Shown here in pieces: positions 12,021-62,512 of a stretch of DNA of 64,000 nucleotides. Numbering within the stretch: position 1 is the stretch's first letter; each line of letters begins with the position of its first letter. Made by a program: the position numbers and the translations under genes. Source of the stretch: an uncultured Porphyromonadaceae bacterium (lineage in GTDB: Bacteria; Bacteroidota; Bacteroidia; Bacteroidales; UBA12481); NCBI GenBank assembly GCA_964512915.1, contig CAZEKJ010000004.1, positions 41,347 through 105,346 on the forward strand, read 5' to 3'. Under the pieces are notes generated by a model, which had not been told where the DNA came from, made no database searches, and worked only from the letters and a program-made list of their open reading frames with translations.

Positions 12021-12070
12021 AATCGTGACGCGTGATGCGTGATGCGTGAAGCGAAAAAAAATCGTGACAG
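12021..12070. repeat. CGTGANS heptamer array plus A-tract
   Basis: cgtgacg cgtgatg cgtgatg cgtgaag cg aaaaaaaa tcgtgacagg. Confidence 0.9.
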
Positions 12071-16710: not shown

Positions 16711-16737
16711 CGTGACGCGTGATGCGTGACCCGTGAT
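16711..16737. repeat. CGTGANS heptamer array
   Basis: Preceded by cgaaaaaaat: cgtgacg cgtgatg cgtgacc cgtgat. Confidence 0.9.
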
Positions 16738-19460: not shown

Positions 19461-20434
19461 TATTTCTTCCCTTTTGCAAACAGATCCCACGCCAGCGAGC
19501 TGGCCCCGAGCACCGCGGAATTCTTGCTATTGAGCCCTGAGGGCAGGAGTTTGACTTTACCCTTATAGATAAACAGCAGGTTATCTTCAAATGCGCGGAG
19601 TGTTGGTTCCATAAGGAGTCCCTTTGCCAGGGTGAGCCCGCCGAAAAGAAAAATAGCTTCGGGGTTGGTATGGGCGACTACATCGGCCAGCTTCAGTCCG
19701 AGCATTTCACCTGTGTGCTCAAAAGCGCGGATAGCCAGAATGTCACCACGCTCAGCTGCTTCTGCAATATTCAGGGAGGTCATCTGATTGAAGCTAAGGT
19801 CCCTCAGTTCCGAGGGTTCAAGGGAGTCCGACATGATTTTGAAAAGGGTGCGCTTAAGACCGGTCGCTGACACGTATGTTTCGAGGCAGCCCATTCGTCC
19901 GCATCCGCACTCACGGTTGGTACGGCCCGGCCGTACAATGGTGTGCCCCACTTCGCCGGCGAAACCGTCCTGACCATAGACCAGTTTTCCGTCAATCACA
20001 ATGCCGGATCCGACCCCGGTACCGAGTGTAATGACCACGAAATTCTTCATCCCCTGTGCCGCTCCGTAAACCATTTCGCCCACTGCCGCAGCATTGGCGT
20101 CGTTGGTTACCAGCACCGGCCAGTCGGTATGCTCATGAATAAGATCTGCCAGCGGGGTTATTCCCTTCCACGCCAGGTCGGCCGGATGTTCAATGGTTCC
20201 CTTGTTGATGTTCCCCATCGGTGCCCCGATGCCTATGCCAATGACCTCAAGCGGTTCCGCTACTTTCTTTTGAAGCATTTTTACTTTCTCCCACATGGCT
20301 GCAACAAAAACTTCCGGTTCCGCAAAATTCACGGTAGAAATCCTGTCTTCTGCCAAAAAATGTCCATGGGAATCCACAAAAGCAAAGTCGGTGTTAGTGC
20401 CGCCGATATCAATGCCGAGCGCAACTTTTTTCAT
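19460..20434 (-). CDS. ROK family sugar kinase (glucokinase-like)
   Basis: 324 aa. DIGGTNTDFA ATP-binding N-terminus and the ROK zinc motif CGCGRMGCLETYVS. Confidence 0.85.
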   Translation of the reverse strand: MKKVALGIDIGGTNTDFAFVDSHGHFLAEDRISTVNFAEPEVFVAAMWEKVKMLQKKVAEPLEVIGIGIGAPMGNINKGTIEHPADLAWKGITPLADLIHEHTDWPVLVTNDANAAAVGEMVYGAAQGMKNFVVITLGTGVGSGIVIDGKLVYGQDGFAGEVGHTIVRPGRTNRECGCGRMGCLETYVSATGLKRTLFKIMSDSLEPSELRDLSFNQMTSLNIAEAAERGDILAIRAFEHTGEMLGLKLADVVAHTNPEAIFLFGGLTLAKGLLMEPTLRAFEDNLLFIYKGKVKLLPSGLNSKNSAVLGASSLAWDLFAKGKK

Positions 20435-21935: not shown

Positions 21936-24251
21936 ATGGAAATGACCAATCCTTACCAGTCAGCTGAACCCGGCCGTTTGGATCGGGTAGCTTCTGACAT
22001 CCTCCGCAACGTCAGGCTCAACAAGGGATTCATGATCTGGATGGGTTTCCTGTCCGTTGGACTTCTTGCCTGCCTTTTCGCCTACACCATACAGCTCCGC
22101 GAGGGCCTCGGGGTTACCGGTCTCCGCGACCATACCAGCTGGGGCATGTATATTGCCAACTTCGTTTTCTTTGTAGCCTCCTCCCTGATCGGCATGCTGA
22201 TCAGCTCCGTTCTCGGGCTGATCGGATTCAAGTGGGTTATCCCGATTGCACGAATTGCTGAAATAATAGCGGTGGCTTTCGCGGCAGTGGCAGGCCTCGT
22301 GATTATCAGCGACATGGGCCGCCCCGACCGGCTTCCCTATGTGTTCCTGCATGGAAGGCTGCAGTCTCCCATTCTTTGGGATGTGACTGTGGTCACCACC
22401 TATTTTCTTGTCAGCTTCCTGCTCTACTTCCTGCCGATGCTGCCCGACCTGGCAGTAGCGAAAGGCAGGATTACACATCTGCCAAAGTGGCTCCAATGGC
22501 TTTATAATATTGCCTCTTTCAACTGGATCCACAAATCGGAACAATATAAGATTCTGTTCCGGATGACGCGAACTCTGCTGATATTAATTGTACCCCTGGC
22601 CTTCGCCATTCATACGGTCACCTCCTGGCTTTTTGCAGTAACTGTAAGGCCCGGGTGGGACAGTACGATCTTTGGCCCCTATTTTATCTCAGGCGCCTTT
22701 GTTTCGGGCTCAGCCGCGGTGATCATCGCTATGTTTTTCTTCAGGAACAGCTTCAGGCTGCATAACTATTTAACGCCCTATCATTTTGATAAAATGGCCA
22801 AACTTCTTGGTTTGGTGGCCATTGTCTATTTTTATTTTAATCTGAACGAATTTCTGGTTCCGGTCTATAAACTCAAGAAATTTGAAGCGCTTCACCTTCA
22901 GGAGCTGTTTACTGGAAGTCACGCACTCCTCTTCTGGGGCACTCAGTTACTCGGACTTATTATCCCGATATTTCTCCTGTTCCTTAAGCCGATGCGGAAA
23001 CCGCTTCCGCTCACCATCATTGCACTTTTTGTCTTTGCCGGCTCCTGGCTCAAGCGGTTCATTATTGTGGTTCCGGTTCAGGAACATCCTTTCCTGCCCA
23101 AACAGAACGTTCCCGTGGAGTGGATGGTCTACACCCCCACCCTCATCGAAGTAGCTGTCACGGTTGCTTCCATGATCATGGTCCTGATGATTATCACGAT
23201 CCTGGCGAAGACCTTTCCGGTATTGCCGATCGTGGAGATTGCCGCGGAAGAGGGACCGCAGAACGCAGACAGAGGACTGCAGGAAGACAGTCAAAACGAA
23301 GTAACTGGTAACAGAGGTTCTCGGAAGAACTCAGGCGGTCTGCCGTCTGCGGTCTGCGGTCTTTTTCTGCTGATGCTGGTACCTGCTGTCTCGCAGGCAC
23401 AAACCTGGGAAACACCAGCAGAAAAAAAGACCAAGCTCGCCGATTTCAAGTTCGACGAGACGACCGTTAAGGCCGGCGCCGTGATTTACCAGGTAAACTG
23501 CAAATCGTGCCATGGCGATCCGGGCAAGAATAATGTTACCCAGCTGGTACCTCTTCCCCCTGATATCGTTTCAGAGCAGTTGCAAAGAAATACCGACGGA
23601 GAGCTATATTATAAACTGCAAACGGGGAAAGGCCAGATGCCAGCCTTTGGTATGGCGCTGACCTCGCCTGAACTGTGGCAGGTGATTGCTTACATGAGGA
23701 GTTTTAACCCAAATTACACCCAGGAGGTCGCCACAAAGGGGGGCCTTGACACACGCTACAGTGATGTGAAAATTACCTTGGCGGCGATGAATGATACGAT
23801 CCTGAAGGCCACCATATCGGGCCTGGAAAACAATATCCGCATTCCCATCCCCGCGGTTGAAGCCAGGGTTTTTGCGCACCGGTATTTTGGTCACCTTCCC
23901 CTGGATGAACCGAAATCCTCCGATCCTGCCGGCATCATTCTTTTCAACATTCCTTCCGATCTACCCGCCGATACGGCCGGAAGGGTCAAACTGATGGTCA
24001 CGCTGACGAATGAAGACCAGTTTGGTGCCGTTGAAACTGACAGCATCCTTGAATTCGGGAAGGAAACACATCCGGTAAGCCTCCGCGCTAAGAGGGCCAT
24101 GTGGAACACGGGTAACAGAGCCCCGATCTGGCTGACTATCGCCTACCCGCTCGGCCTCCTCATTGTGCTCGCAGTCATCGGTTCCATCCTCCTTCAACTG
24201 CGGGAAATATTCTATATCGGTAAAAGGAGCAAGAACGAAAATAAATTGTAA
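21936..24251 (+). CDS. NrfD/PsrC/ActC-like quinol-interacting membrane subunit fused to a monoheme cytochrome c domain and a C-terminal anchored domain
   Basis: 771 aa in one uninterrupted frame. About 440 aa of polytopic NrfD-like sequence (GVTGLRDHTSWGMYIANFVFFVASS...), then a charged linker, a TM segment (SAVCGLFLLMLVPAV), heme site CKSCHG with distal GQMPAF, about 150 aa of unknown fold, and a final TM followed by KRSKNENKL. Confidence 0.75.
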   Translation: MEMTNPYQSAEPGRLDRVASDILRNVRLNKGFMIWMGFLSVGLLACLFAYTIQLREGLGVTGLRDHTSWGMYIANFVFFVASSLIGMLISSVLGLIGFKWVIPIARIAEIIAVAFAAVAGLVIISDMGRPDRLPYVFLHGRLQSPILWDVTVVTTYFLVSFLLYFLPMLPDLAVAKGRITHLPKWLQWLYNIASFNWIHKSEQYKILFRMTRTLLILIVPLAFAIHTVTSWLFAVTVRPGWDSTIFGPYFISGAFVSGSAAVIIAMFFFRNSFRLHNYLTPYHFDKMAKLLGLVAIVYFYFNLNEFLVPVYKLKKFEALHLQELFTGSHALLFWGTQLLGLIIPIFLLFLKPMRKPLPLTIIALFVFAGSWLKRFIIVVPVQEHPFLPKQNVPVEWMVYTPTLIEVAVTVASMIMVLMIITILAKTFPVLPIVEIAAEEGPQNADRGLQEDSQNEVTGNRGSRKNSGGLPSAVCGLFLLMLVPAVSQAQTWETPAEKKTKLADFKFDETTVKAGAVIYQVNCKSCHGDPGKNNVTQLVPLPPDIVSEQLQRNTDGELYYKLQTGKGQMPAFGMALTSPELWQVIAYMRSFNPNYTQEVATKGGLDTRYSDVKITLAAMNDTILKATISGLENNIRIPIPAVEARVFAHRYFGHLPLDEPKSSDPAGIILFNIPSDLPADTAGRVKLMVTLTNEDQFGAVETDSILEFGKETHPVSLRAKRAMWNTGNRAPIWLTIAYPLGLLIVLAVIGSILLQLREIFYIGKRSKNENKL

Positions 24252-24687: not shown

Positions 24688-24712
24688 CGCATACATGCGT
24701 CCGTTCCCGTAG

Positions 24713-24736
24713 GGGCGAGCTGCGCTCGCCCGTTTT
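24713..24736 (+). terminator. Conserved GC hairpin plus T-run after DoxX
   Basis: gttcccgtag-gggcgagc-tgc-gctcgccc-gtttt. Same flanks as 11984 with a covarying stem interior. Confidence 0.55.
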
Positions 24737-24757
24737 GCCATCGAGTAGATAAAGCAC

Positions 24758-30007: not shown

Positions 30008-30021
30008 CTTACTGCCTGTAA

Positions 30022-30068
30022 GGGCGACCTGCGGTCGCCCATTTAAACCGGGCGACCGCAGGTCGCCC
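30022..30068. terminator. Two copies of the GGGCGACC-TGC-GGTCGCCC hairpin in opposite orientation between convergent genes
   Basis: 30022-30040 (+ sense, after ctaB, followed by attta). 30050-30068 (minus sense, after the SIS gene, followed by ggttt on the minus strand). Confidence 0.45.
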
Positions 30069-30079
30069 CTACTGGGACG

Positions 30080-31093: not shown

Positions 31094-31109
31094 AGTGTAG
31101 AATTTAAAT

Positions 31110-31266
31110 GGCCTCCCTGCGGTCGGCTAACAGGCCCTTCGGGCTAAAAGGGGCTTCGCCCTAACAGGCATTTGGCAATTTCTCTATTAGCGCGAAGCGC
31201 CTGTTAGGAGCGCAGCGACCTCTTAGGAGCGAAGCGACCTATTAGCGAGCGCAGCGAGCCTATTAT
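31110..31266. repeat. Modular linker-plus-mini-hairpin element, copy 1
   Basis: Left half: cctccctgcggtcggc-taacagg-cccttcgggc-taaaagg-ggcttcgccc-taacagg. Right half: tattag-cgcgaagcgc-ctgttagg-agcgcagcga-cctcttagg-agcgaagcga-cctattag-cgagcgcagcgag-cctatta. Confidence 0.9.
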
Positions 31267-31267
31267 A

Positions 31268-33212: not shown

Positions 33213-33234
33213 GCTAAATTGTTAATTAATATTT

Positions 33235-33404
33235 CTAAAAGGCTCGGCTTTAGCCTCGCTAAAAGGTCGCTGCGCTCCTAAAAGGGGCTGAAGCCCTAAC
33301 TCGCACGACGGTTGCCTCTCTATTAGCGCGAAGCGCCTGTTAGCGACCGCAGGGAGCCTTTTAGCGAGGCGTTAGCCGAGCCTCTTAGGAGTGAAGCGAC
33401 CTGT
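33235..33404. repeat. Modular linker-plus-mini-hairpin element, copy 2
   Basis: ctaaaagg-ctcggctttagcctcgc-taaaagg-tcgctgcgctc-ctaaaagg-ggctgaagccc-taac ... tattag-cgcgaagcgc-ctgttag-cgaccgcagggag-ccttttag-cgaggcgttagccgag-cctcttagg-agtgaagcga-cctgtt. Confidence 0.9.
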
Positions 33405-34090: not shown

Positions 34091-34154
34091 CGTGATACGT
34101 AAAGCGTAACGCGTGAATAACAATCTCTTAACTCTCTTAACTTCCTTAACTCCC
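34091..34154. repeat. Degenerate CGTGA-type array followed by a 9-mer array (TCTCTTAAC x3)
   Basis: cgtgatacgtaaagcgtaacgcgtgaataac, then tctcttaac tctcttaac ttccttaac tccc. The 9-mer array covers the ROK stop (34146-34148). Confidence 0.85.
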
Positions 34155-35128: not shown

Positions 35129-35184
35129 GTCATCCTGGCGAAAGCCAGGATCTCCCAGGGGATCCCGACTTTCGTCGGGATGAC
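35129..35184. repeat. Twin tetraloop hairpins (GAAA-loop family)
   Basis: gtc-atcctggc-gaaa-gccaggat (35129-35151) and atcccgac-tttc-gtcgggat-gac (35162-35184). Confidence 0.9.
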
Positions 35185-35189
35185 AACCC

Positions 35190-36658: not shown

Positions 36659-36705
36659 CGTGAACCGTGAAGCGTGAAGCGTGAAGCGTGAACCGTGAAC
36701 CGAGA
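36659..36705. repeat. CGTGANS heptamer array x6
   Basis: cgtgaac cgtgaag cgtgaag cgtgaag cgtgaac cgtgaac cgaga. Confidence 0.95.
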
Positions 36706-36708
36706 ATC

Positions 36709-38325: not shown

Positions 38326-39873
38326 ATGAAATACTTACCCATCGTCCTCCTCACGCTTTTTTTGGGTGCCGCCTGCGCCAACCAGGAAAAAACCGGGAAC
38401 CGAGTTCCTGAGCGCACGATTCTAACGAAAACCGTCATGCTCGACAAGATCAAAGGGGGCTGGGCCGGACAGGTTATCGGATGCACCTTTGGCGGTCCCA
38501 CAGAGTTTGGCTACAAAGGAACCATGATCCAGGATTACCAGCCGATACCCTGGGATAGCGATCGCATTGCCTGGTATTTCGAAAATGCGCCGGGTTTGTA
38601 TGACGATGTATACATGGACCTCACTTTTGTCGACGTAATGAACAAGGAGGGCATTGATGCGCCGGCATCGAGTCACGCCAAGGCGTTTGCGCATGCGGTC
38701 TATCCGCTCTGGCATGCCAATCAGGCAGCCCGGCATAACATCCTCCACGGCATTATGCCTCCCGAATCGGGCCATTGGCTCAACAATCCCCATTCCGATG
38801 ATATCGATTTTCAAATCGAGGCTGACTTTGCCGGACTAATGTCGCCCGGAATGCCGAACGCCTCCTCCGGGATCTGCGACCGGATAGGCCATATCATGAA
38901 CTATGGTGACGGATGGTATGGTGGCGTGTACCTTGCTGCCATGTACAGTCTGGCCTTTGTGAGCCATGATATCGAATTTATTGTGGAGGAAGGGCTGAAG
39001 ACCATCCCGGCTGAATCCAGCTTCTATCGGTGTATTCAGGATGTCATTGGCGCATACAAGAAGGATCCCTCCGACTGGAAAGCAGCATGGTTTGCAGTTG
39101 AACGAAATTGGGCGGCCGAAGTGGGCTGTCCCGATGGAGTTTTCAGGCCTTTTAATATCGATGCAAAGGTGAATTCGGCCTATGTAGTGATCGGACTTTT
39201 ATACGGCAGAGGGGATTTTGCCAGGACCCTGCAGATAGCTGCGCGATGCGGGCAGGATTCCGACTGTAACCCTGCCAGTGCCGGGGGGATACTGGGTACG
39301 GTGCTGGGCTATGACAAGATTCCGGGATTCTGGCTTGAGGCTCTCATACCAATTGAAAACGAGCCGTTCTCCTTCACAAACCTATCACTGTCTGATGTTT
39401 ATGAATCCAGTTTCAAGCATGCACTTGAGATGGTAACAAAAAATGGCGGAGCCATTGATGGCGAAAATGTGACCATTGCTTCACAGATACCCCAGCCGGT
39501 GAAACTGGAGCAGGGCTTTACCGGTTATTATCCGGTTGAGCGGCGCAGAATCGGGACCGATATTGAGACCACGGCAGAGATCCGGTTTGAGGGAACGGGT
39601 TTTGTGCTCACCGGTGAGGTGGACCGTGATTCATTCCGAAAAAAAATTCCAGGGGTTATAGATGTTGAAATGGTAGTGGATGATTTGGCTCCGGTTGCTT
39701 TTGCCATGCCCCTGAATGATCTGAGGCGGAGGCTGGAGGTGGCCTGGATGTTCGGCCTTACCGACGGACCCCACGTGATCCGGCTGAAAATCCTCAATCC
39801 ATGGGAAGCCGGCCGCATCCGGACCGGCGACCTCATCATTTACCGGTCGCAGCCATTCAATCCGGGGATCTGA
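38326..39873 (+). CDS. ADP-ribosylglycohydrolase family lipoprotein
   Basis: ORF 38254-39873; ATG at 38326 gives MKYLPIVLLTLFLGAAC (lipobox). Family motifs KIKGGWAGQVIGCTFGGPTEF and GQDSDCNPASAGGILG. Confidence 0.75.
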   Translation: MKYLPIVLLTLFLGAACANQEKTGNRVPERTILTKTVMLDKIKGGWAGQVIGCTFGGPTEFGYKGTMIQDYQPIPWDSDRIAWYFENAPGLYDDVYMDLTFVDVMNKEGIDAPASSHAKAFAHAVYPLWHANQAARHNILHGIMPPESGHWLNNPHSDDIDFQIEADFAGLMSPGMPNASSGICDRIGHIMNYGDGWYGGVYLAAMYSLAFVSHDIEFIVEEGLKTIPAESSFYRCIQDVIGAYKKDPSDWKAAWFAVERNWAAEVGCPDGVFRPFNIDAKVNSAYVVIGLLYGRGDFARTLQIAARCGQDSDCNPASAGGILGTVLGYDKIPGFWLEALIPIENEPFSFTNLSLSDVYESSFKHALEMVTKNGGAIDGENVTIASQIPQPVKLEQGFTGYYPVERRRIGTDIETTAEIRFEGTGFVLTGEVDRDSFRKKIPGVIDVEMVVDDLAPVAFAMPLNDLRRRLEVAWMFGLTDGPHVIRLKILNPWEAGRIRTGDLIIYRSQPFNPGI

Positions 39874-39903
39874 TATTTTCCTTACTCTGATTATCTTTGC
39901 CCG

Positions 39904-41079
39904 ATGGTCATTGCTGTCAACTGCCGCTTACTTCAGAAGAACAGGCTCGAGGGCATCGGGTGGTTCACCTATGAAACGCTCAGGCGCATCACACGTGATC
40001 ATCCTGAGCATCAGTTCATCTTCATTTTCGACCGCCCCTATTCATCGGAGTTTATTTTTTCTGATAATATAACCCCGGTGGTGGCCGGATTTCCTACACG
40101 CCACCCCATTTTGTGGCTGCTTTGGTTTGAGGTGGTGATCCCCCGGGTGCTAAGAAAATACAAGGCTGATATTTTCTTTTCCCCGGATGGATTTCTCTCC
40201 CTGCGCACCCGGGTGAAATCGATCCCCGTGATCCATGACATCAGTTTTGTGCACCGGCCCGGTGACCTGCCCTTCTGGCCGCGTGTCTATTACAACTATT
40301 TCTTTCCCCGGTTTGCCCGGAAAGCCTACCGGATCTGCACTGTATCACAGCACAGCCAGAAAGACATGAACCGCACCTGGGATACTGCCCGGGCCATTGT
40401 ACGGGTGGTTCACAACGGCGCCAATGCCGCCTACCAGCCCCTCACCCCTGAAGAGATCCGTGCCACACGGGAAAAATATACCGGGGGTCAGCCTTATTTT
40501 CTGTATGTGGGTTCACTCCACCCCCGGAAAAATGTCGGCAACCTGCTGGATGCCTATGACCGGTTTTCCAGCGAAAACGGGCCGGACGTGAGGATGGTTG
40601 TGGTTGGGGAGAGGATGTGGAAGAAGAACGTGACGCGTGACACGAAAAACGTGATGCGAAACACGGATTCTTTCGGATCACGCATCACGCGTCACGATCC
40701 TCCCGTTTTGTTCACCGGCCGTCTCGAGCCCGATGAACTTCGCCTGGTGATGGGCGCTGCACTGGCCCTGACCTTTGTTCCCTGGTATGAAGGTTTTGGC
40801 ATACCGGTGGTGGAGGCGATGGCAGCAGGTGTGCCGGTACTGACCTCCCATGTGACCTCCCTGCCTGAAGTGGGCGGCGAGGCGGTTCTCTATGCCGATC
40901 CCGCCTCAGTGGAAAGCATTGCGGAGGGCATGACGCGATTAGCCGCTGATGAAAAATTGCGACATGACCTCATCGAAAAAGGGCTCGAACGGTCAAGGAG
41001 CTTCAGCTGGGACAAGACCGCGCGGAAGGTTTGGCTGACGATAGATACGGTGATCAGGGCGATACGAACGTACAAGTAA
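39904..41079 (+). CDS. Glycosyltransferase family 4 (GT-B, group 1)
   Basis: 391 aa with the C-terminal motif EGFGIPVVEAMAAGVPVLTS. Carries an in-frame palindromic repeat element at 40629-40696. Confidence 0.8.
   Translation: MVIAVNCRLLQKNRLEGIGWFTYETLRRITRDHPEHQFIFIFDRPYSSEFIFSDNITPVVAGFPTRHPILWLLWFEVVIPRVLRKYKADIFFSPDGFLSLRTRVKSIPVIHDISFVHRPGDLPFWPRVYYNYFFPRFARKAYRICTVSQHSQKDMNRTWDTARAIVRVVHNGANAAYQPLTPEEIRATREKYTGGQPYFLYVGSLHPRKNVGNLLDAYDRFSSENGPDVRMVVVGERMWKKNVTRDTKNVMRNTDSFGSRITRHDPPVLFTGRLEPDELRLVMGAALALTFVPWYEGFGIPVVEAMAAGVPVLTSHVTSLPEVGGEAVLYADPASVESIAEGMTRLAADEKLRHDLIEKGLERSRSFSWDKTARKVWLTIDTVIRAIRTYK
40629..40696. repeat. Palindromic CGTGAYG-type element inserted in frame inside the GT4 gene
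   Basis: cgtgacgcgtga (40629-40640) pairs with tcacgcgtcacg (40685-40696). cgtgatgcg (40650-40658) pairs with cgcatcacg (40681-40689). Translated as NVTRDTKNVMRNTDSFGSRITRHD. Confidence 0.85.
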
Positions 41080-41260
41080 CAGGTCGCTGCGCTCGCTAAA
41101 AGGCCTCCCTGCGGTCGGCTAATAGGCCCTTCGGGCTAATAGGGGCTTCGCCCTAACAGGCAATTGTGTTCATGCTCTATTAGCCCGAAGGGCCTATTAG
41201 CCGACCGCAGGGAGGCCTCTTAGCGAGGCGCCAGCCGATCCTCTTAGGAGCGCAGCGACC
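41077..41260. repeat. Modular linker-plus-mini-hairpin element, copy 3 (best long hairpin)
   Basis: taacagg-tcgctgcgctc-gctaaaagg-cctccctgcggtcggc-taatagg-cccttcgggc-taatagg-ggcttcgccc-taacagg ... tattag-cccgaagggc-ctattag-ccgaccgcagggagg-cctcttag-cgaggcgccagccgatc-ctcttagg-agcgcagcga. Three module pairs are exactly complementary. The first TAA is the GT4 stop. Confidence 0.9.
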
Positions 41261-41277
41261 CATTTATTTTAATTACC

Positions 41278-41907
41278 ATGCCAAAAGATCGTACCCACCC
41301 CACCCTCCTGCCTTCCCCCAGCCTCGCTACTGCCGGCTGCGATGAGGCGGGCCGCGGCTGCCTGGCCGGGCCGGTGTTCGCCGCCGCGGTGATCCTGCCG
41401 GCTGGGTTTACGCATCCCGATCTCAACGATTCCAAGCAGATGAGCATGAAGAACCGCAACCGGCTGCGTTTGGTGATCGAGGATTCGGCGCTGGCCTGGG
41501 CCGTAGCCCGGGTCGAGGCAGAAGAGATTGATGAGATCAACATTCTCAATGCCAGCATTCTGTCCATGCATCGGGCCCTATCGGAATTAAAAATAAAACC
41601 GGAATTGCTCCTGATCGACGGTCATCGGTTCAAACCCTGGTCCGATGTTCCACACCGTTGTGAAATAAAGGGTGATGGGCGATTCCTTTGCATCGCCGCC
41701 GCCTCCGTACTGGCCAAAACCCACAGGGATGAATACATGCTGGGAATCCATCAGGAGTTTCCTCATTATCACTGGGATCACAACATGGGCTACCCCACAC
41801 GGGAACATCGGGATGCGATACGCCGTGAAGGGATCACTCCGCATCACCGGAAGAGTTTCAGGCTGCTCGACGGGCAGATGGAGATCCCGTTTATGATTGA
41901 CGATTGA
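41278..41907 (+). CDS. rnhB: Ribonuclease HII
   Basis: 209 aa with canonical [25 protein letters not shown] and ASVLAK blocks. The last codons and the stop lie in a GATTGAC array. Confidence 0.9.
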
Positions 41908-41930
41908 CGATTGACAATTGACGATTTGAT
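41895..41930. repeat. GATTGAC heptamer array x5
   Basis: gattgac gattgac gattgac aattgac gatttga. Encodes the last residues (IDD) and the stop of RNase HII. Confidence 0.9.
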
Positions 41931-41972: not shown

Positions 41973-43640
41973 ATGAAACATCTTTTCCCCATAATCGGAA
42001 TGCTGCTGCTGGCCTCCTGCCAGCCCAAGGAAGTGCCACTAACCCGTGAACAGGTTGACAAGGCCTGGAAGGAGGGGACGACCTTAGACCTGACAGGTTT
42101 TGAAAACCTAGACCTGACAGGTTTCCAAAACCTGTCAGGTCTGTTCGCCCGCCAACCGGTTAAGGACGACAAGGGCTTCAACGTCCTCGTCGACCTGGCG
42201 CATGAGTGTTCTTTTTACCTGATGTGGACGTTGCCGGAGCAGCTGAACAAGCTGGGATACCGGTCGCTGGGCAGTCACGCCACGATCAACTCCGCCATGG
42301 ATCCGAACGGAGAAAGCCGGGTGCGGATTCTCTGGGATACGGTCAATAAGATCTATCCGTTTGTTTGGTGGCCGAACCCCAAATACCATGTGGCGATCAC
42401 CGGACAGTTCAATCCGAAAGCCCAGGATTATACCGATGCGGAGATTACCTCCCTGGTAAATTTCGTTAAGAAGGGCGGCGGACTGATCATCCAGACGGAT
42501 AACCGCAAGCTTAAAGGCGGCCCCGGCAAGCCGGGCGTTGCCGATAGTTCCTGGTCGGTGCGGAAGCTGGTAAAAGCTTTCAATGCTGAAGTTATGGATG
42601 AGCCGGTTAAACTGACTTTTGGTAAGGGACGTGTTCTGATTACCGGTAATACAAAAGACCTGAAATATCCCAGGAATGCCACGGATGTTCAGAAAGACTC
42701 GGTTGACCTTGTGGTTGGCGGGTACCTGGCCTGGCTGACGGAAAAGCAGAAACGGCTGAAGGATGAGCCCATCATGCCACAGACCATGGAAGGCGGCGGC
42801 CCCATTTATCCCGAGCTTGAAGAGAATTTCAGCAACATCGTGTTTTATTACGCGGCCAATCAGAAAACTGAGCTGCTGAGCGTAGTCAAGAATGATGTAC
42901 CCAAGGCCCAAACTTTTATCCAGGAGAGGCTCCCCTCAACACCGACAGCCGAACCGATGTACCTGATCCTTTGCGCCGGCGGTGGCGGCGGATGGGCCGT
43001 GAATATCTACAAGCCAAAGGAAAATGGAATCATCAGTCTGGATGGTCACGGAATCCTTTCGATCTTCGGTCACGAGCTCGCGCATACCATGTATGGCCCA
43101 GCCAATGATGAGGGGAATGTTGCCGGCATCACGCCGATCCCGAACCGCGGCGAGGCCCATGCCGGTTGGTTCCAGGGAAAGGTAAACGCCCTTTTCGATT
43201 CAACGTTGCGCGATAAGGCTAACCGCGACTGTAACCTGATGTTTGCCTTTGACCCGAAGGGTAACGCCATGGATCTGGCCACCTGCTACGAGAATGAGGC
43301 CATGAACAAGCAGTGGGGGTATGGTAAAGACTGGCACAAGACCTGGTATATCTGGCAAAAGCTGGACGACCGGTATGGTCCCGGCTGGTATCCGAAATGG
43401 AGATATGTGCAGCACACAAGATGGAAAAATGATCCTGAGCACCGTCTAAGCTGGGACGAGATGATTGAGGACATGAGCATTGCCGTAGGCGAGGACCTCT
43501 TTCCTTTCTTCATCAAACTGGGAACCACACTGGATAAAAAGCGCCTCGAGCAGATCGATTATAATGGAGCGACCATTAAATTACCGGTAGCGCCGATAGA
43601 GGTGACGATGGCGGGGGCGGTTCGCATCGAAGCAATATAA
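41973..43640 (+). CDS. Lipoprotein with HExxH zinc-metalloprotease-like motif
   Basis: 555 aa with lipobox LLLASC and HELAHTMYG at about aa 370. N-terminal linker residues about 37-57 are encoded by a palindromic repeat cluster. Confidence 0.5.
   Translation: MKHLFPIIGMLLLASCQPKEVPLTREQVDKAWKEGTTLDLTGFENLDLTGFQNLSGLFARQPVKDDKGFNVLVDLAHECSFYLMWTLPEQLNKLGYRSLGSHATINSAMDPNGESRVRILWDTVNKIYPFVWWPNPKYHVAITGQFNPKAQDYTDAEITSLVNFVKKGGGLIIQTDNRKLKGGPGKPGVADSSWSVRKLVKAFNAEVMDEPVKLTFGKGRVLITGNTKDLKYPRNATDVQKDSVDLVVGGYLAWLTEKQKRLKDEPIMPQTMEGGGPIYPELEENFSNIVFYYAANQKTELLSVVKNDVPKAQTFIQERLPSTPTAEPMYLILCAGGGGGWAVNIYKPKENGIISLDGHGILSIFGHELAHTMYGPANDEGNVAGITPIPNRGEAHAGWFQGKVNALFDSTLRDKANRDCNLMFAFDPKGNAMDLATCYENEAMNKQWGYGKDWHKTWYIWQKLDDRYGPGWYPKWRYVQHTRWKNDPEHRLSWDEMIEDMSIAVGEDLFPFFIKLGTTLDKKRLEQIDYNGATIKLPVAPIEVTMAGAVRIEAI
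42084..42142. repeat. Palindromic AGACCTGWCAGGTYT cluster inside a CDS
   Basis: Copies of agacctgacaggttt at 42086-42100 and 42110-42124, the complement aacctgtcaggtct at 42129-42142, and ggtttt-g-aaaacc at 42095-42107. Translated as TLDLTGFENLDLTGFQNLSGL. Confidence 0.85.
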
Positions 43641-43826
43641 AAACAGGTCGCTGCGCTCCTAAAAGGCCTCCCTGCGGTCGGCTAAAAGGCTCCCTTCGGT
43701 CGCTAACAGGCGCTTCGCGCTAATAACGCTTTATAGCTATTGATTGTTAGGGCGAAACCCCTTTTAGCCGACCGCAGGGAGGCCTTTTAGGAGCGCAGCG
43801 ACCTGTTACCGAGCGAAGCGAGGACA
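43638..43826. repeat. Modular linker-plus-mini-hairpin element, copy 4
   Basis: aaacagg-tcgctgcgctc-ctaaaagg-cctccctgcggtcggc-taaaagg-ctcccttcggtcgc-taacagg-cgcttcgcgc ... ttag-ggcgaaacccc-ttttag-ccgaccgcagggagg-ccttttagg-agcgcagcga-cctgtta-ccgagcgaagcgagg. Fills the whole convergent spacer. Confidence 0.9.
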
Positions 43827-46906: not shown

Positions 46907-47036
46907 GGGGCAGGAGGGCATTCCTTAGGGCAGGAGGGCAAAAGGGCAGGAGGGCAGGAAGTAAAGGTCAAATCTTAAAACTTAAAGTCTTAAGCCTTTA
47001 CTTTCTGCCCTCCTGCCCTTTCTGCCCTTCTGCCCT
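46907..47036. repeat. Hairpin element with GGGCAGGA/GGCAGAA arms
   Basis: ...tagggcaggagggcaaaagggcaggagggcaggaagtaaagg (to 46967) faces cctttactttctgccctcctgccctttctgcccttctgcccta (46994-47036). The core contains cttaaaacttaaagtcttaag. The right arm includes the stop of ORF 47035. Confidence 0.9.
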
Positions 47037-49002: not shown

Positions 49003-49200
49003 TTGCAGGCGCAGGGGGTGGAACAAAAGAGGGCAGAAGGGCAGGAGGGCAGAAGGGCAAAAAGTAAAGGATAAAAATAATAGGTAACAAAATACTAGTA
49101 TGTTTATAATGTGCGCCTTAAACTACTTATCACTTTTCACTTTCCTTTCTGCCCTTCTGCCCTCCTGCCCTTCTGCCCTCTTTTGTCCCACCCCCTGCAA
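49003..49200. repeat. Hairpin element with 49-bp near-perfect GGGCAGAA/GGGCAGGA arms
   Basis: 49011-49059 (gcagggggtggaacaaaagagggcagaagggcaggagggcagaagggca) is the reverse complement of 49150-49198 with one mismatch. 90-nt AT-rich spacer. Sits in a divergent promoter region. Confidence 0.95.
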
Positions 49201-53606: not shown

Positions 53607-53738
53607 CGACGCAAGCGTGCGCCCGCGTAACGCACCTGTAGGGGCGAACCCGCGGTTCACCCGGGATGGTTCGTGGGGAGTGACCAGTGACCAGTGACCA
53701 GTGACCAGTGACCAGTTCGTGATGCGTGACGCGTGAAG
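53602..53738. repeat. Composite spacer: CGTGA-like tract, GC hairpin, (GTGACCA)x5, CGTGAYG x3
   Basis: 53602-53635 cgtgacgacgcaagcgtgcgcccgcgtaacgcac. 53636-53666 ctgtaggggcgaacccgcggttcacccggg. 53680-53714 five perfect gtgacca. 53718-53738 cgtgatg cgtgacg cgtgaag. Confidence 0.95.
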
Positions 53739-54883: not shown

Positions 54884-54969
54884 CGTGAGGCGTGACGCGT
54901 GATGCGAAAAACCGGTAACTGGTAACCGGCAACCAGCAACCAGCAACCAGCAACTAGTAACCAGCAACC
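54884..54969. repeat. CGTGANS x3 followed by RGYAACY x8
   Basis: cgtgagg cgtgacg cgtgatg cg aaaaacc, then ggtaact ggtaacc ggcaacc agcaacc agcaacc agcaact agtaacc agcaacc. The last units encode AGY-stop of GH29 (54954). Confidence 0.95.
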
Positions 54970-59377: not shown

Positions 59378-59531
59378 AAGGCAGAAGGCAGAGGGCAGAA
59401 GGCAAAAATTAGGACGAAGAAAAATGAAAAAAGAAGGAAACTGCTTCTAATCCAACTTGTTACTTAACTTGATTCTTAAGGATTAAGGACTTAAGACTAA
59501 TTTTTGCCTTCTGCCCTCTGCCCTCTGCCTT
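59378..59531. repeat. Hairpin element (GGCAGAR arms, 35-bp inverted repeat with 1 mismatch), copy A
   Basis: Left arm 59378-59412 aaggcagaaggcagagggcagaaggcaaaaattag. Right arm 59497-59531 is its complement apart from one base. 84-nt core. Confidence 0.95.
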
Positions 59532-59568: not shown

Positions 59569-60696
59569 ATGACCCGCCACGAACGACTTCTTCGATCCCT
59601 CCGCGGCCTCCCGGTCGATCGCCCACCCGTCTGTTTCTACGAAATAAACGGCTACGACGAGCATCCGGAAGATCCTGATCCGTTCAATATTTTCTCCCAT
59701 CCCTCCTGGAAACCTCTAATCTACCTGGCCCGGGAGAAAACCGACCGGATCATCATGCGGGGCGTGGCTTTCAAGGAGATCGCCCCCGACCCGATCGGCC
59801 ACATTGCCGCCGATCAAACCACCCTAAAAAACGGCTCCCGGTACATCCGGCGAACCGTTCATGCGGGCAGGCGCATCCTGACCATGGAGACCCGTCAGGA
59901 TCCGGATATCAACACCATCTGGACCACCGAGCCGCTGCTCAAGGATCTGGATGATCTGGATGCGTTCCTTGAACTCCCCGTTTTCGGTGCCGGTGAAACC
60001 GTGAATGCCATTGAATTCCTTAAAGTTGAAGCCGATATCGGAGATACAGGTTTGGTCATGATCGACACGCCCGATCCGCTTTGCCTGGCTGCACTCCTCT
60101 TCGACATGAGCAATTACACCATGGTTGCCCTCACCGAACCCGAGCGCTTTCATAAATTACTGCAACGGTTCTCCGAGGTTCTCCTTGCCAAAACGGAGGA
60201 AGTTGCAAAACTCCTCCCCGGCCGCCTCTGGCGCATTTACGGTCCGGAGTTCGCCTCCCCGCCCTACCTGCCGCCTTATCTGTTCCGTGAATATGTATCC
60301 CGATATGTTGGCCCGATGATCGACCTGATCCACCAATCGGGCGGGTTTGCCCGGGTTCACTGTCATGGCAACATCCGCGACATCCTCGATGATATTGCAG
60401 CCATGGGTGCCGATGCCATTGACCCGATCGAGCCCCCGCCCCAGGGCGATGTAACGCTAAAATATGTAAGGGAACGCTACGGCGACCGCCTTGTCCTCTT
60501 CGGCAACCTCGAATGTGCCGATCTCGAAAACCTCCCGACTTCCGAATTTGAAAAGAAAATCCGCCAGGCCCTCGACGAAGGCACCGCCGGCTCCGGCCGC
60601 GGCTTCGTACTTATGCCCTCTGCTTCGCCATATGGGAGGGTGCTGGGGGAGCGTGCAATGAGGAACTATGAGGCGATGATCCGGGTAATACAATAA
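59569..60696 (+). CDS. Uroporphyrinogen decarboxylase (URO-D) family protein, MtaA/CmuA-like
   Basis: 375 aa. N-terminal MTRHERLLRSLRGLPVDRPPV and a C-terminal HCHGN...DPIEP pattern typical of the URO-D superfamily. Flanked by two inverted copies of one repeat element. Confidence 0.65.
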   Translation: MTRHERLLRSLRGLPVDRPPVCFYEINGYDEHPEDPDPFNIFSHPSWKPLIYLAREKTDRIIMRGVAFKEIAPDPIGHIAADQTTLKNGSRYIRRTVHAGRRILTMETRQDPDINTIWTTEPLLKDLDDLDAFLELPVFGAGETVNAIEFLKVEADIGDTGLVMIDTPDPLCLAALLFDMSNYTMVALTEPERFHKLLQRFSEVLLAKTEEVAKLLPGRLWRIYGPEFASPPYLPPYLFREYVSRYVGPMIDLIHQSGGFARVHCHGNIRDILDDIAAMGADAIDPIEPPPQGDVTLKYVRERYGDRLVLFGNLECADLENLPTSEFEKKIRQALDEGTAGSGRGFVLMPSASPYGRVLGERAMRNYEAMIRVIQ

Positions 60697-60841
60697 GGCA
60701 GAGGGTAGAAGGCAGAAGGCAGAAATTAGTCTTAAGTCCTTAATCCTTAAGAATCAAGTTAAGTAACAAGTTGGACTAGAAGCAGTTTATTTCTTTTCAC
60801 CTATTTCTTCTTACTAATTTCTGCCTTCTGCCCTCTGCCTT
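60695..60841. repeat. Hairpin element (GGCAGAR arms), copy B, inverted relative to copy A
   Basis: Arms 60695-60729 and 60814-60841. The 84-nt core (60730-60813) is the reverse complement of the copy A core (first 45 nt identical, about 85 percent overall by eye). Confidence 0.95.
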
Positions 60842-60886: not shown

Positions 60887-62386
60887 ATGAAACTGCCCGT
60901 CTCCGTCAATAACCGGCTTTCCATCACCGGCGCCATCGTGGCCAGCATCAGTCTGATGTTCATCATCTTCTTTTTTATCATCAGCCTGTTCTATACCGAA
61001 GGCGGTAACTACCTGGGCCTATTCACCTACATTATCCTTCCGGTATTCCTGATTCTCGGCCTGATCCTGATACCCATCGGGATGGTTGGGAAAATGAAGC
61101 GGATGAAACGAGGTATTGAAGAGGTAAAAGGTAAGCCCTGGATCATAGATTTTACCGATAAACGGCACCGGAATGCCACATTTGTTTTTGCCATGGGTAC
61201 GGTAGTTCTTCTCTTTCTATCGGGGATTGGAAGCTATGAGGCCTTTCATTACAGCGAATCCGTTCAGTTCTGCGGTACAACCTGCCACAAGGTTATGGAG
61301 CCGGAACACACTGCCTATCAGGGATCTGAACACGCCAACGTTGCCTGCGTAGAATGCCATGTTGGCGCCGGCGCCGACTGGTATATCAGATCGAAACTTT
61401 CCGGACTCCGACAGGTTTGGGCGGTTATCACCAATAGTTACCCTCGCCCGATACCTACCCCGATAGTGGATCTGCGGCCTGCGCGGGAAACCTGTGAACA
61501 CTGCCACTGGCCGGCGAAGTTCTATGCGCACAAACTGGTATCAGAGAAACACTATCTGGCCGATTCTGCCAATACCGAGTGGAATATAGACCTTCGGATG
61601 AAAATCGCCGCCTCACACAGCGCCCTGGGAAATACCGGCGGAATCCACTGGCATATCAATCCTGATATTAAAATCGAATACATTGATGCCCTGGGCGACC
61701 GTGAGATGCTTCCGTGGGTCCGTAGTATTAACCTGATCACCGGCGATACCACGATATACATGGATTCCGAGAACCCGGCCAGCGACTCAATCATGCATGC
61801 TGTTGAACCCCGTACCATGGACTGCATGGATTGCCACACACGCCCGTCGCACAAATACCGGACTCCACAAACATTTGTAGATGAAGCGATTGCAGCAGGC
61901 GAGATATCCGTTACCCTGCCGGAAATTAAAAAAATCAGCATGGAAGTCCTGCGCACAGAGTACTTCAACCGCCAGGGCGCCCAGGACACCATCCGCCAAA
62001 CCATCGATGCATTCTACAAGGATACCTATCCCGATATTTATGCCAACCGCAAATCCGACGTGGATCAGGCTATTGCAGGAGTTTTAGCTGGATATGCCAA
62101 AAACATATTCCCCGAAATGAAAGCCAGCTGGGATGCGTACCCTGATCACATCGGACATATTGAATACGGCGGCTGTTTCCGGTGCCACAACGATAAACAT
62201 CAGAGTAAATCGGGTAAAGTAATCTCACGAGACTGCAACCTCTGCCACAACATCATGACTCAGGGGACTCCGCAAAACCTGGAAGTGGCTCCGTTTAATG
62301 GTCAACTGGAATTCAAACACCCCGTTGACATTGAGGATGCATGGAAGGAGATGGCTTGTACGGAGTGCCACAGAAAGCTGTACTAG
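60887..62386 (+). CDS. Membrane-anchored multiheme cytochrome c (NapC/NirT-like N-terminus, seven heme sites)
   Basis: 499 aa with N-terminal TM segments. Six CxxCH sites (CVECH, CEHCH, CMDCH, CFRCH, CNLCH, CTECH) plus one CGTTCH (CX3CH) at the position of the NapC-type FCxxCH. Confidence 0.75.
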   Translation: MKLPVSVNNRLSITGAIVASISLMFIIFFFIISLFYTEGGNYLGLFTYIILPVFLILGLILIPIGMVGKMKRMKRGIEEVKGKPWIIDFTDKRHRNATFVFAMGTVVLLFLSGIGSYEAFHYSESVQFCGTTCHKVMEPEHTAYQGSEHANVACVECHVGAGADWYIRSKLSGLRQVWAVITNSYPRPIPTPIVDLRPARETCEHCHWPAKFYAHKLVSEKHYLADSANTEWNIDLRMKIAASHSALGNTGGIHWHINPDIKIEYIDALGDREMLPWVRSINLITGDTTIYMDSENPASDSIMHAVEPRTMDCMDCHTRPSHKYRTPQTFVDEAIAAGEISVTLPEIKKISMEVLRTEYFNRQGAQDTIRQTIDAFYKDTYPDIYANRKSDVDQAIAGVLAGYAKNIFPEMKASWDAYPDHIGHIEYGGCFRCHNDKHQSKSGKVISRDCNLCHNIMTQGTPQNLEVAPFNGQLEFKHPVDIEDAWKEMACTECHRKLY

Positions 62387-62499: not shown

Positions 62500-62512
62500 A
62501 TTAGTTGCTCCG

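What the first reader, a model, noticed from the sequence alone, without database searches (positions are those of the whole stretch)
40629..40696. Palindromic CGTGAYG-type repeat element sits in frame inside a GT4 glycosyltransferase
The intergenic CGTGANS motif reappears inside CDS 39904-41079 as an imperfect palindrome. cgtgacgcgtga (40629-40640) is complementary to tcacgcgtcacg (40685-40696), and cgtgatgcg (40650-40658) to cgcatcacg (40681-40689). The reading frame is preserved, and the segment is translated as the charged, low-complexity stretch NVTRDTKNVMRNTDSFGSRITRHD. It lies between the VVVGE strand and the VLFTG strand, a surface linker region in GT-B enzymes. This looks like a repeat element inserted into a gene that is still intact, adding about 24 residues.
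Basis: partly seen in the sequence, partly recalled or inferred. Interest (0 to 1): 0.65.

Follow-up and report, generated by a model that had tools for sequence, protein, structure and literature searches.

The report
Heptamer-repeat hairpin translated inside a glycosyltransferase
A 68-base hairpin built from the genome's dispersed 7-base repeat CGTGAYG sits in frame in a surface linker of an intact glycosyltransferase gene, and relatives carry different repeat hairpins at exactly the same spot, so this linker acts as a long-lived tolerated site for repeat DNA.

Summary
Bases 40629-40696 form an imperfect palindrome made of 7-nt units, (CGTGAYG)n followed by (CRTCACG)n. It is in frame in GT4 gene 39904-41079 and belongs to the same heptamer family as six intergenic arrays in the window. 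The hairpin folds better than all 200 shuffles, and AlphaFold2 gives pLDDT below 50 only for residues 239-264.

The interpretation needs revision, because this is not a one-off recent insertion. Four orthologs at about 74% nucleotide identity (three with DNA in hand) carry the same element type, and it aligns without gaps over 78 nt. Much closer orthologs (92% and 89% nt identity) carry different heptamer hairpins at the same site: (GACGGAC)n and (GACCGCA)n. More distant relatives have forward-only heptamer arrays, a CCCCCTCC hairpin, or a 24-nt tandem array. Outgroups have a conserved 17-residue segment and no repeat.

A second in-frame heptamer hairpin lies in the window's NrfD-cytochrome c fusion linker.

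Best reading: dispersed repeat arrays, like cyanobacterial STRRs, colonise and turn over wherever selection tolerates them, including two coding linkers. The closest analogue is the Rickettsia palindromic elements. How the arrays move is unknown. This is a new variant of a known kind, of moderate interest.

The parts
39904..41079 (+). Intact GT4 (GT-B fold) glycosyltransferase gene, 391 aa. Synteny is conserved: Wzx-type flippase, ADP-ribosylglycohydrolase, GT4, RNase HII.
   Evidence: ORF; Pfam PF00534, PF13439, PF13692; AF2 mean pLDDT 86.5; Foldseek hits to MshA, PimB', BshA and WaaG; synteny.
40629..40696 (+). In-frame heptamer-repeat hairpin element (type A). It encodes residues 242-265 (NVTRDTKNVMRNTDSFGSRITRHD).
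   Evidence: pLDDT is below 50 for residues 239-264.
40629..40670 (+). Left arm: six 7-nt units, CGTGACG CGTGACA CGAAAAA CGTGATG CGAAACA CGGATTC. The two units where TGA would fall in frame (40645 and 40666) read AAA and GAT; three of the four out-of-frame units keep TGA.
   Evidence: Read directly with codon phase taken from 39904. 20 of 22 bases match intergenic 54891-54912, including the terminal CGAAAAAC.
40623..40664 (+). 21-nt (three-unit, 7-codon) direct duplication, 40623-40643 / 40644-40664, 81% identical.
   Evidence: D1; period 21.
40677..40698 (+). Right arm, (CRTCACG) x about 2.9 units, free of stop codons in every frame. Its reverse complement is 22/22 identical to intergenic 12022-12043 and 21/21 identical to 16709-16729.
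40662..40670 (+). Apical loop of the predicted hairpin. Stems: 40629-40640 with 40685-40696, 40650-40655 with 40677-40682, 40657-40661 with 40671-40675.
12024..12053 (+). Intergenic (CGTGAYG)x4.3 direct array between convergent genes, ending in CGAAAAAAAA.
16711..16736 (+). Intergenic (CGTGAYS)x3.7 direct array.
34091..34118 (+). Degenerate intergenic array: CGTGATA CGTAAAG CGTAACG CGTGAAT.
36659..36706 (+). (CGTGAAS)x6.9 array, followed directly by an (AACYGGT)n array.
53718..53736 (+). Intergenic (CGTGAYG)x2.7 array, directly after (AGTGACC)x5.4.
54884..54906 (+). Intergenic (CGTGASG)x3.3 array ending in CGAAAAAC, followed by (AACCGGT)n and (AACCAGC)n arrays.
23254..23362 (+). Second in-frame heptamer hairpin in the window: (GACCGCA GAACGCA GACAGAG GACTGCA) ... 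(GCGGTCT GCCGTCT GCGGTCT GCGGTCT). It lies in the linker of the NrfD-cytochrome c fusion ORF 21936-24251.
   Evidence: RNA folding energy -61.5 kcal/mol over 150 nt. Orthologs carry other heptamer hairpins at this site.

Best explanation
The segment belongs to a genome-wide population of dispersed short tandem repeat arrays (7- and 8-nt units), often arranged as inverted pairs that fold into hairpins. These arrays fill almost every stretch of the genome that selection leaves free.

In an ancestor of this Bacteroidales clade, the segment joining strands Cbeta2 and Cbeta3 of the GT4 C-terminal Rossmann domain lost its constraint. In outgroups it is a conserved 17-residue segment, probably a helix. 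Since then the site has been occupied by such arrays.

Shown here:
- The CGTGAYG-type hairpin is inherited from a common ancestor shared with about 74%-identical orthologs.
- It is translated as a disordered, charged loop.
- It stays in frame. Length changes between close relatives come in 21-nt (three-unit) steps, and TGA is absent exactly in the two units where it would be in frame.
- In two closely related lineages it has been replaced by other heptamer types.

Inferred, not shown:
- Arrays change by replication slippage.
- The two arms are kept complementary by intrastrand template switching (quasipalindrome correction).
- Unit types are exchanged by ectopic conversion or re-insertion from other arrays in the same genome.
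- The peptide has no function of its own and is simply tolerated.
For: 1. Same family as the intergenic arrays. The motif is enriched 13 versus 0.88, and the right arm is 22/22 and 21/21 identical to arrays at 12022 and 16709.

2. The site is hypervariable. The linker is 9-83 aa in the top 50 orthologs and carries 7-aa repeats: DRRPQTA, DRRPKTE, DQRRKTE, KGKSQMA.

3. Ortholog DNA shows many element types at the same site:
- L081/L082/L085: (GACGGAC)n/(GTCCGTC)n hairpin, identical in three independent assemblies.
- L083: (GACCGCA)n/(TGCGGTC)n hairpin, -59.9 kcal/mol.
- L168 and L169: related hairpins.
- L084, L086, L167: CGTGAYG hairpins.
- L087-L090: forward-only GACCGAA-type arrays.
- L166: (GCAARRG)x17.
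- L096, L004, L069: CCCCCTCCTT/AAGGAGGGGG hairpin.
- L165: 24-nt unit x7.

4. Outgroups (Prolixibacteraceae and relatives) have a conserved 17-aa KTxDIExTYEGMRYKxD segment with no repeat and weak folding.

5. Retention versus replacement. The window and L084/L086/L167 elements align ungapped over 78 nt at 60-70% identity, while third codon positions of the gene are only 46-48% identical. The window and L081 genes are 91.8% identical (third positions 82%), yet the elements are unrelated. A neighbour-joining tree built with the linker masked puts window, P0002 and P0003 together and places type A in the sister subclade as well.

6. Disorder: the only stretch with pLDDT below 50 is residues 239-264.

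7. Frame maintenance. None of the 166 fetched loci showed a stop or frameshift between the two motif anchors, where both were found. P0016 and its sisters P0008/P0009 differ by exactly 7 aa.

8. Generality. A second in-frame heptamer hairpin lies in the NrfD-cytochrome c linker, again with different unit types in orthologs. Arrays abut stop codons throughout the window. A 145-bp element whose ends are heptamer arrays occurs twice.
Against: The mechanism of spread and of type switching was not observed, and no transposase or target-site duplication was identified.

The CGAAAAA unit also ends two intergenic arrays. The missing in-frame TGA may therefore reflect how the array arrived rather than later purging.

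Types B, C and D all share GAC[CG]G, so part of the apparent replacement could be in-situ concerted evolution.

The tree is a simple NJ tree without support values.

Hairpins of unrelated sequence recur at one site, which could also mean the hairpin itself is under selection.

Only 64 kb of this genome and short flanks of relatives were examined.
Confidence: 0.68

Rival explanations
1. The hairpin itself is functional. An mRNA or DNA secondary structure at this position (for example a translational pause between Rossmann elements, an RNase site, or a protein-binding site) is maintained by selection, and the peptide is a by-product.
For: Strong hairpins of unrelated sequence occupy the same site in at least eight lineages, with z-scores from about -2.5 to -6. 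The two arms co-vary between the window and L084: the Y/R positions are swapped on both arms. Two of the 17 consensus pairs show compensatory changes. The type A element is more conserved than third codon positions.
Against: Several lineages have forward-only arrays or no structure at all: L087-L090, L166 and L092/L002 fold at only -3 to -8 kcal/mol or have z near 0. Minimal 9-aa linkers exist. There is no terminator-like feature at the element and no Rfam match. Arm complementarity can also be explained by template switching. Only four sequences were available for covariation.
Confidence: 0.12
2. This is a recent insertion of a discrete mobile palindromic element (MITE- or RPE-like) into this particular gene.
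For: The palindromic architecture fits, and the arms are identical to other loci in the genome. Elements with heptamer-array ends and conserved cores do occur as dispersed copies.
Against: A positionally homologous 78-nt element is present in orthologs at about 74% nt identity. No other full-length copy is present in the window, and the intergenic CGTGAYG copies are direct arrays. No target-site duplication is seen.
Confidence: 0.1
3. This is a contingency locus. Gain or loss of single 7-nt units shifts the frame and switches the surface-polysaccharide glycosyltransferase on and off (phase variation).
For: Heptanucleotide repeats lie inside a glycosyltransferase gene in a polysaccharide locus next to a flippase. 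Heptanucleotide phase variation of glycosyltransferases is known in Neisseria; this is recalled from memory and was not checked here.
Against: The units are degenerate, with at most two perfect copies in a row. None of the 166 fetched loci showed a frameshift or stop between the two motif anchors, where both were found. Length differences between close relatives are multiples of 21 nt. The element is mid-gene and palindromic.
Confidence: 0.04
4. The palindrome is a coincidence in an ordinary low-complexity linker, or it is an assembly artefact.
For: Two related metagenome contigs end inside the linker (L131, L132), which shows that repeats at this site disturb assembly.
Against: The enrichment and fold statistics argue against chance. 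An identical element was recovered from three independent assemblies of a relative (L081, L082, L085). The frame is intact and synteny is conserved.
Confidence: 0.02

Closest known systems
Rickettsia palindromic elements (RPE; Ogata et al. 2000, recalled from memory; RPEs are discussed in PMC1779305 and PMC2635572, found)
   Same: Both are palindromic repeat DNA sitting in frame inside intact protein-coding genes, translated as an extra surface segment that the fold tolerates. In both cases the same repeat family also occurs between genes.
   Different: RPEs are 100-150-bp elements with a defined family consensus, found in obligate intracellular alphaproteobacteria. This element is 68 bp, built from tandem 7-nt units, and has no full-length copy elsewhere in the window. 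The host is a free-living Bacteroidales lineage. Different unit types also replace each other at one site, which as far as I know has not been described for RPEs.
Dispersed heptamer direct repeats: cyanobacterial STRRs, and the TAACTGA repeats of Beggiatoaceae, Cyanobacteria and five Bacteroidetes (MacGregor 2015, PMC4679880)
   Same: Both are 7-nt units in short tandem arrays, dispersed and mostly intergenic. Arrays overlap or abut stop codons. Forward units that contain a stop triplet give stops in all three frames. Rare in-ORF cases occur at the periphery of proteins. Several heptamer types can sit in one intergenic region. Contigs break at the arrays.
   Different: The unit sequences differ (CGTGAYG, GACCGCA, AAGGCAG and others), and no TAACTGA arrays are present. 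Many arrays here are inverted pairs that form long hairpins. The element lies mid-domain in an enzyme. Unit-type turnover at orthologous sites is documented here.
REP / BIME / REPIN elements (Bertels and Rainey 2011, PMC3116915)
   Same: Both are short, palindromic, highly dispersed extragenic repeats that form hairpins.
   Different: REPINs are fixed-sequence inverted REP pairs mobilised by RAYT transposases and are essentially extragenic. No RAYT was looked for or found here, and the arms are tandem heptamers.
Heptanucleotide simple-sequence contingency loci in glycosyltransferase genes (for example Neisseria pglE; recalled, not checked)
   Same: Both are 7-nt repeats inside a glycosyltransferase ORF.
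   Different: Contingency loci have long perfect arrays with frameshifted off alleles. Here the units are degenerate, the arrangement is palindromic, and every allele seen is in frame.

Membership tests
GT4 glycosyltransferase (GT-B fold) | Pfam Glyco_transf_4 N-terminal domain plus Glycos_transf_1 C-terminal domain, both above the gathering score | tested here: met
   PF13439 at 41.7 bits (cut-off 28.5); PF00534 at 92.6 bits (cut-off 26.4), spanning residues 194-361 across the insert.
GT4 glycosyltransferase (GT-B fold) | Two Rossmann-like domains, with structural similarity to solved GT4 enzymes | tested here: met
   AF2 pTM 0.85. Foldseek against PDB: MshA 3c4q E = 2e-22, TM 0.78; also PimB', BshA and WaaG.
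GT4 glycosyltransferase (GT-B fold) | EX7E motif in the C-terminal domain | tested here: met
   E296-GFGIPVV-E304 in the translation. E296 and E304 are invariant in the 53-sequence alignment.
Dispersed heptamer tandem repeats (STRR-like) | Head-to-tail 7-nt units that occur at many loci, mostly intergenic | tested here: met
   About 35 period-7 arrays in 64 kb, with CGTGAYG at seven loci.
Dispersed heptamer tandem repeats (STRR-like) | Unit identical to a described family (STRR1-3 or TAACTGA) | tested here: not met
   No TAACTGA dimer on either strand. The units found by TRF differ from CCCCAGT, TTGGTCA and CAACAGT (STRR sequences recalled from memory).
RPE-like in-frame palindromic element | A palindromic repeat in frame in an intact ORF, absent from orthologs, mapping to a surface or disordered segment | tested here: met
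RPE-like in-frame palindromic element | Sequence membership in an RPE family, or dispersed full-length copies of the same palindrome | tested here: not met
   No second full-length copy in the window; only the arms match elsewhere. The genome-wide count could not be tested.
MITE | Terminal inverted repeats, a target-site duplication, and multiple full-length copies | tested here: inconclusive
   Inverted arms are present. No duplication is visible at the boundaries in the five-way alignment. There is no second copy in 64 kb. Other array-ended elements do occur twice.
Phase-variable simple-sequence contingency locus | A long perfect repeat tract, with alleles differing by single units that shift the frame | tested here: not met
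   At most two perfect units in a row. None of the 166 loci showed a frameshift between the anchors, where both were found. Length steps are 21 nt.
Known structured RNA (Rfam) | A match at gathering score | tested here: not met
   No matches in the whole window.

The most novel reading that the evidence does not exclude
The heptamer and octamer arrays of this Bacteroidales lineage may be an undescribed class of self-propagating repeat element.

Under this reading, inverted tandem arrays act as the ends of hairpin elements that actively re-insert or convert one another within a genome. That would explain three things: they fill nearly every intergenic space right up to the stop codon, they repeatedly colonise the same tolerant coding linkers in frame, and they swap unit type between species that are still about 90% identical.

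Coding linkers such as the GT4 site would then record this activity, and would be a source of new, rapidly evolving peptide sequence inside conserved enzymes.
Probability: 0.25. Interest if true: 0.75.

Novelty: new variant of a known kind. Interest (0 to 1): 0.55.

Why it matters
In-frame carriage of selfish or repeat DNA by intact genes is classically documented for Rickettsia palindromic elements. Heptamer repeat arrays are an old, unexplained feature of cyanobacterial and a few other genomes.

This locus joins the two. It shows heptamer arrays as hairpins inside an enzyme's Rossmann domain, in a free-living Bacteroidales clade.

Orthologs at graded divergence are available, so the site gives a natural time series. 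The same element is retained across about 26% nucleotide divergence, yet it is replaced by other unit types within about 8-11% divergence, always in frame.

That makes the dynamics of these arrays (slippage, arm homogenisation, ectopic replacement, decay into unique linker sequence) directly measurable. It also offers a concrete case of repeat DNA becoming protein sequence.

Practically, such sites break metagenome assemblies and inflate apparent protein length variation.

Tried and rejected
- Rfam gathering-score scan of the whole window: no hit.
- Promoter and terminator scan of 39800-41400: nothing at the element, so the internal-terminator idea was dropped.
- TAACTGA arrays: searched for and absent.
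- Frameshifted or stop-containing alleles across the linker: none in the 166 fetched loci, so phase variation was down-weighted.
- P0050's 8-aa repeat: it looked like an octamer nucleotide array, but the DNA shows a 24-nt unit.
- Third unit CGAAAAA: first read as a selective TGA-to-AAA purge. This was tempered after the same CGAAAAA was found ending intergenic arrays.
- Source assembly: attempts to identify it failed. The exact-protein contig look-up found no record and cluster listing gave no accession.
- Whether P0002 (GT4) and P0121 (NrfD-cytochrome c), both 89% identical to the window proteins, come from one genome could not be established. No claim is therefore made about a shared unit type within one genome.
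- Literature: searches found only MacGregor 2015 for heptamer repeats in Bacteroidetes. The Elhai 2008 paper on small dispersed repeats is not in the library.
Full report
**1. The observation**

40629-40640 (cgtgacgcgtga) is the exact reverse complement of 40685-40696, and 40650-40658 is the exact reverse complement of 40681-40689.

ORF 39904-41079 reads through the segment without interruption.

The motif is not a chance occurrence. CGTGAYGCG occurs 13 times in the window against 0.88 expected, and none of 100 shuffles reached that count.

The 96-nt stretch around the element folds at -36.3 kcal/mol as RNA (z = -3.5) and -23.5 kcal/mol as DNA (z = -3.8). No shuffle folded as well.

**2. Anatomy**

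Read in 7-nt steps, the segment is:

CGTGACG | CGTGACA | CGAAAAA | CGTGATG | CGAAACA | CGGATTC | TTTCGGA | TCACGCA | TCACGCG | TCACG

This is a forward array of a heptamer followed by a reverse array of the same heptamer. Units 1-3 and 4-6 form a 21-nt direct duplication, which equals three units or seven codons (D1).

A forward CGTGAYG array carries TGA in all three frames within three units. In this gene, the two units where TGA would be in frame (40645 and 40666) read AAA and GAT. Three of the four out-of-frame units keep TGA. This is read directly.

The reverse arm has no stop codon in any frame and is the better preserved arm.

One caution applies. CGAAAAA also terminates the intergenic arrays at 12024 and 54884. 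The stop-free third unit may therefore have arrived with the array rather than been purged afterwards.

The right arm is 22/22 and 21/21 identical (as reverse complement) to the intergenic arrays at 12022 and 16709. The left arm is 20/22 identical to 54891-54912.

The other CGTGAYG loci are direct arrays only. No second full-length palindrome exists in the 64 kb.

**3. The protein**

Pfam GT4/GT1 domains span the insert.

An AlphaFold2 model built on 53 orthologs has mean pLDDT 86.5 and pTM 0.85. Its only segment below pLDDT 50 is residues 239-264, between strands 230-234 and 268-272.

The model matches solved GT4 enzymes: MshA (E = 2e-22), PimB', BshA and WaaG. The EX7E motif (E296...E304) is intact and invariant.

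The gene is therefore an intact GT-B enzyme, and the element encodes a disordered, charged loop.

**4. Orthologs**

This is where the interpretation changes. Among the top 50 orthologs the linker between (M/L)VVVGExMW and V(I/L)(Y/F)TGRL ranges from 9 to 83 residues. It is full of 7-aa repeats: DRRPQTA, DRRPKTE, DQRRKTE, KGKSQMA.

More distant homologs (Prolixibacteraceae, Sunxiuqinia, Mangrovibacterium and others) have a conserved 17-residue KTxDIExTYEGMRYKxD segment. It shows no nucleotide periodicity and no notable fold. By analogy with other GT-B enzymes I infer that this is the Rossmann crossover helix.

Ortholog DNA shows the following at exactly this site:

| Loci (protein, aa identity to window) | Element at the site |
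|---|---|
| L081, L082, L085 (P0002, 89%; three independent assemblies, identical) | (GACGGAC)n ... (GTCCGTC)n hairpin |
| L083 (P0003, 87%) | (GACCGCA)n ... (TGCGGTC)n hairpin, -59.9 kcal/mol |
| L168, L169 | Related hairpins |
| L084, L086, L167 (P0005, P0004, P0006; 76-77%) | CGTGAYG-type hairpins like the window |
| L087-L090, L001 | Forward-only GACCGAA / GACCAGA arrays, no hairpin |
| L166 (54%) | (GCAARRG)x17 |
| L096, L004, L069 | CCCCCTCCTT-nnn-AAGGAGGGGG hairpin (peptide SPNPLLxKEGA) |
| L165 | 24-nt unit x7, between two CCGGGGnCTGAAGnCCCCGG hairpins (83-residue insert) |

Sister proteins P0016 and P0008/P0009 differ by exactly one 7-aa unit.

None of the 166 fetched loci showed a stop or frameshift between the two motif anchors, where both were found.

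**5. Retention and replacement**

The four type A elements (window, L084, L086, L167) align without a gap over 78 nt at 60-70% identity. They share a consensus hairpin with two compensatory pairs.

Outside the linker, the same genes are 73-74% identical overall and only 46-48% identical at third codon positions. Type A is therefore old, and it is better conserved than neutral sites.

In contrast, the window and L081 genes are 91.8% identical (third positions 82%), and the window and L083 genes are 88.7% identical. Yet the elements are unrelated from ATGTGGAAGAA on the left to the VLFTG codons on the right.

A neighbour-joining tree with the linker masked groups window, P0002 and P0003. It places type A in the sister subclade too, interleaved with type D.

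The simplest reading is that type A is ancestral, and that it was replaced at least twice on short branches by other heptamer types.

Types B, C and D share GAC[CG]G. Part of the diversity may therefore come from in-situ concerted evolution. The A-to-B and A-to-C changes are too large for the point-mutation budget of those branches.

**6. Generality within the window**

TRF finds about 35 period-7 and about 14 period-8 arrays in 64 kb.

Nearly all are intergenic. At least a dozen start or end within 0-3 nt of a stop codon, or supply the stop codon themselves. For example, GATTGAC units encode the last residues and the TGA of RNase HII at 41895-41926.

Many arrays form inverted pairs around AT-rich cores. 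One such 145-bp element occurs twice at 91% identity in opposite orientation, 59385-59529 and 60697-60841. Array-ended elements therefore do exist as dispersed copies.

A second in-frame case lies at 23254-23362, in the linker of the NrfD-cytochrome c fusion ORF 21936-24251. It is a (GACCGCA)n/(GCGGTCT)n hairpin.

- The fusion is conserved in about 28 relatives, down to 52% identity.
- Most other homologs are stand-alone NrfD proteins of about 448 aa.
- Orthologs L171 and L172 carry (GACGGAC)n- and (GTCGGTC)n-type hairpins at that site.

Two unrelated tolerant linkers therefore behave the same way.

**7. Mechanism (inferred)**

- The arrays are a genome-wide population that occupies any sequence space selection leaves free.
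- Slippage changes copy number. Inside ORFs, only three-unit (21-nt) changes survive.
- Intrastrand template switching at quasipalindromes would keep the arms complementary.
- Ectopic conversion or re-insertion from other arrays would swap unit types. Adjacent arrays of different types are common, for example at 53679-53736 and 54884-54969.
- The peptide is a tolerated passenger.

None of these steps was observed directly.

**8. Rival explanations**

- *A selected hairpin function.* This is the most serious rival, because hairpins of unrelated sequence recur at one site and the arms co-vary. However, several lineages lack any hairpin (L087-L090, L166, L092), minimal 9-aa linkers exist, and no terminator or Rfam signal is present.
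- *Phase variation.* This is unlikely given the degenerate units, the absence of frameshifted alleles, and the 21-nt length steps.
- *A recent MITE-like insertion.* This is contradicted by the homologous element in 74%-identical orthologs.
- *Chance or assembly artefact.* These are excluded by the statistics and by the independent assemblies.

**9. Comparison with known systems**

The closest functional analogue is the Rickettsia palindromic elements, which are in-frame palindromic repeats in intact genes.

The closest sequence-class analogue is the dispersed heptamer direct repeats of cyanobacteria (STRRs) and the TAACTGA repeats of Beggiatoaceae, cyanobacteria and five Bacteroidetes. For those repeats, MacGregor 2015 (PMC4679880) already noted:

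- overlap with stop codons;
- stops in all three frames for forward repeats;
- rare in-ORF cases at the periphery of proteins;
- contig breaks at the arrays.

This element fails sequence membership in either family. It differs in four ways: its hairpin architecture, its mid-domain position, the documented turnover of unit type at orthologous sites, and its host lineage (uncultured Bacteroidales near 'Bacteroidetes bacterium GWF2_49_14').

**10. Verdict**

This is a new variant of a known kind. Interest is moderate at 0.55, and would be higher if the arrays prove to be actively mobile.

Noticed in passing
window 1184-1213, 8134-8180, 17075-17117, 19430-19461, 34124-34152, 41895-41926, 47003-47036, 54924-54969, 60695-60724, 62386-62417, 62513-62543, 63542-63576: At least a dozen 7- or 8-nt tandem arrays begin or end within 0-3 nt of a stop codon, or supply the stop codon themselves. 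For example, GATTGAC units encode the last residues and the TGA of RNase HII. The arrays appear to fill intergenic space right up to the coding boundary.
   Followed up: partly
window 21936-24251, element at 23254-23362: A second in-frame heptamer hairpin, (GACCGCA)n/(GCGGTCT)n, lies in the linker of an NrfD-cytochrome c fusion protein. The fusion is conserved in about 28 relatives, while most homologs are stand-alone NrfD. Orthologs L171 and L172 carry other heptamer hairpins at the same site.
   Followed up: yes
window 59385-59529 and 60697-60841: Two copies (91% identical over 145 nt, opposite orientation) of an element whose ends are inverted heptamer arrays, (AAGGCAG)n/(CTGCCTT)n, around an AT-rich core with CTTAAG motifs. 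They flank ORF 59569-60696.
   Followed up: partly
window 9318-9477, 46927-47036, 49030-49179, 19292-19461, 5721-5749: A family of hairpin elements with octamer or heptamer arms: (AGGGCAGR)n-AGTAAAGG ... CCTTTACT-(YCTGCCCT)n, and (AAGGCGA)n/(TCGCCTT)n. They have AT-rich cores and lie in intergenic regions.
   Followed up: no
window 31094-31267, 33213-33404, 41080-41277, 43641-43826; also L081 4200-4322, L083 4200-4294: Composite palindromes of about 180 bp built from 17-22-nt units (GGCTAATAGGCCCTTCG, CTGCGGTCGCTAAAAGGCCTCC). One lies directly downstream of the GT4 gene, and similar elements sit at the same place in relatives.
   Followed up: partly
window 11984-12010, 24700-24740, 30020-30075, 53640-53665; and 2670-2745, 35130-35185, 62430-62500: Two further dispersed GC-rich hairpin families, GTAGGGGCGnnCTGCGnnCGCCC and GTCATCCCGACGAAAGTCGGGATC, mostly downstream of genes. 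They may be terminators or REP-like elements.
   Followed up: no
L131 and L132 (metagenome contigs of GT4 orthologs): Both contigs end inside the GT4 linker (query residues 239-240). This suggests that repeats at this site break short-read assemblies.
   Followed up: no
window 42081-42133 in ORF 41973-43640: A 24-nt tandem repeat (2.2 copies) encodes LDLTGFENLDLTGFQNLSG near the N-terminus of a 555-aa predicted protein that has a signal-peptide-like start. This may be another in-frame repeat.
   Followed up: no
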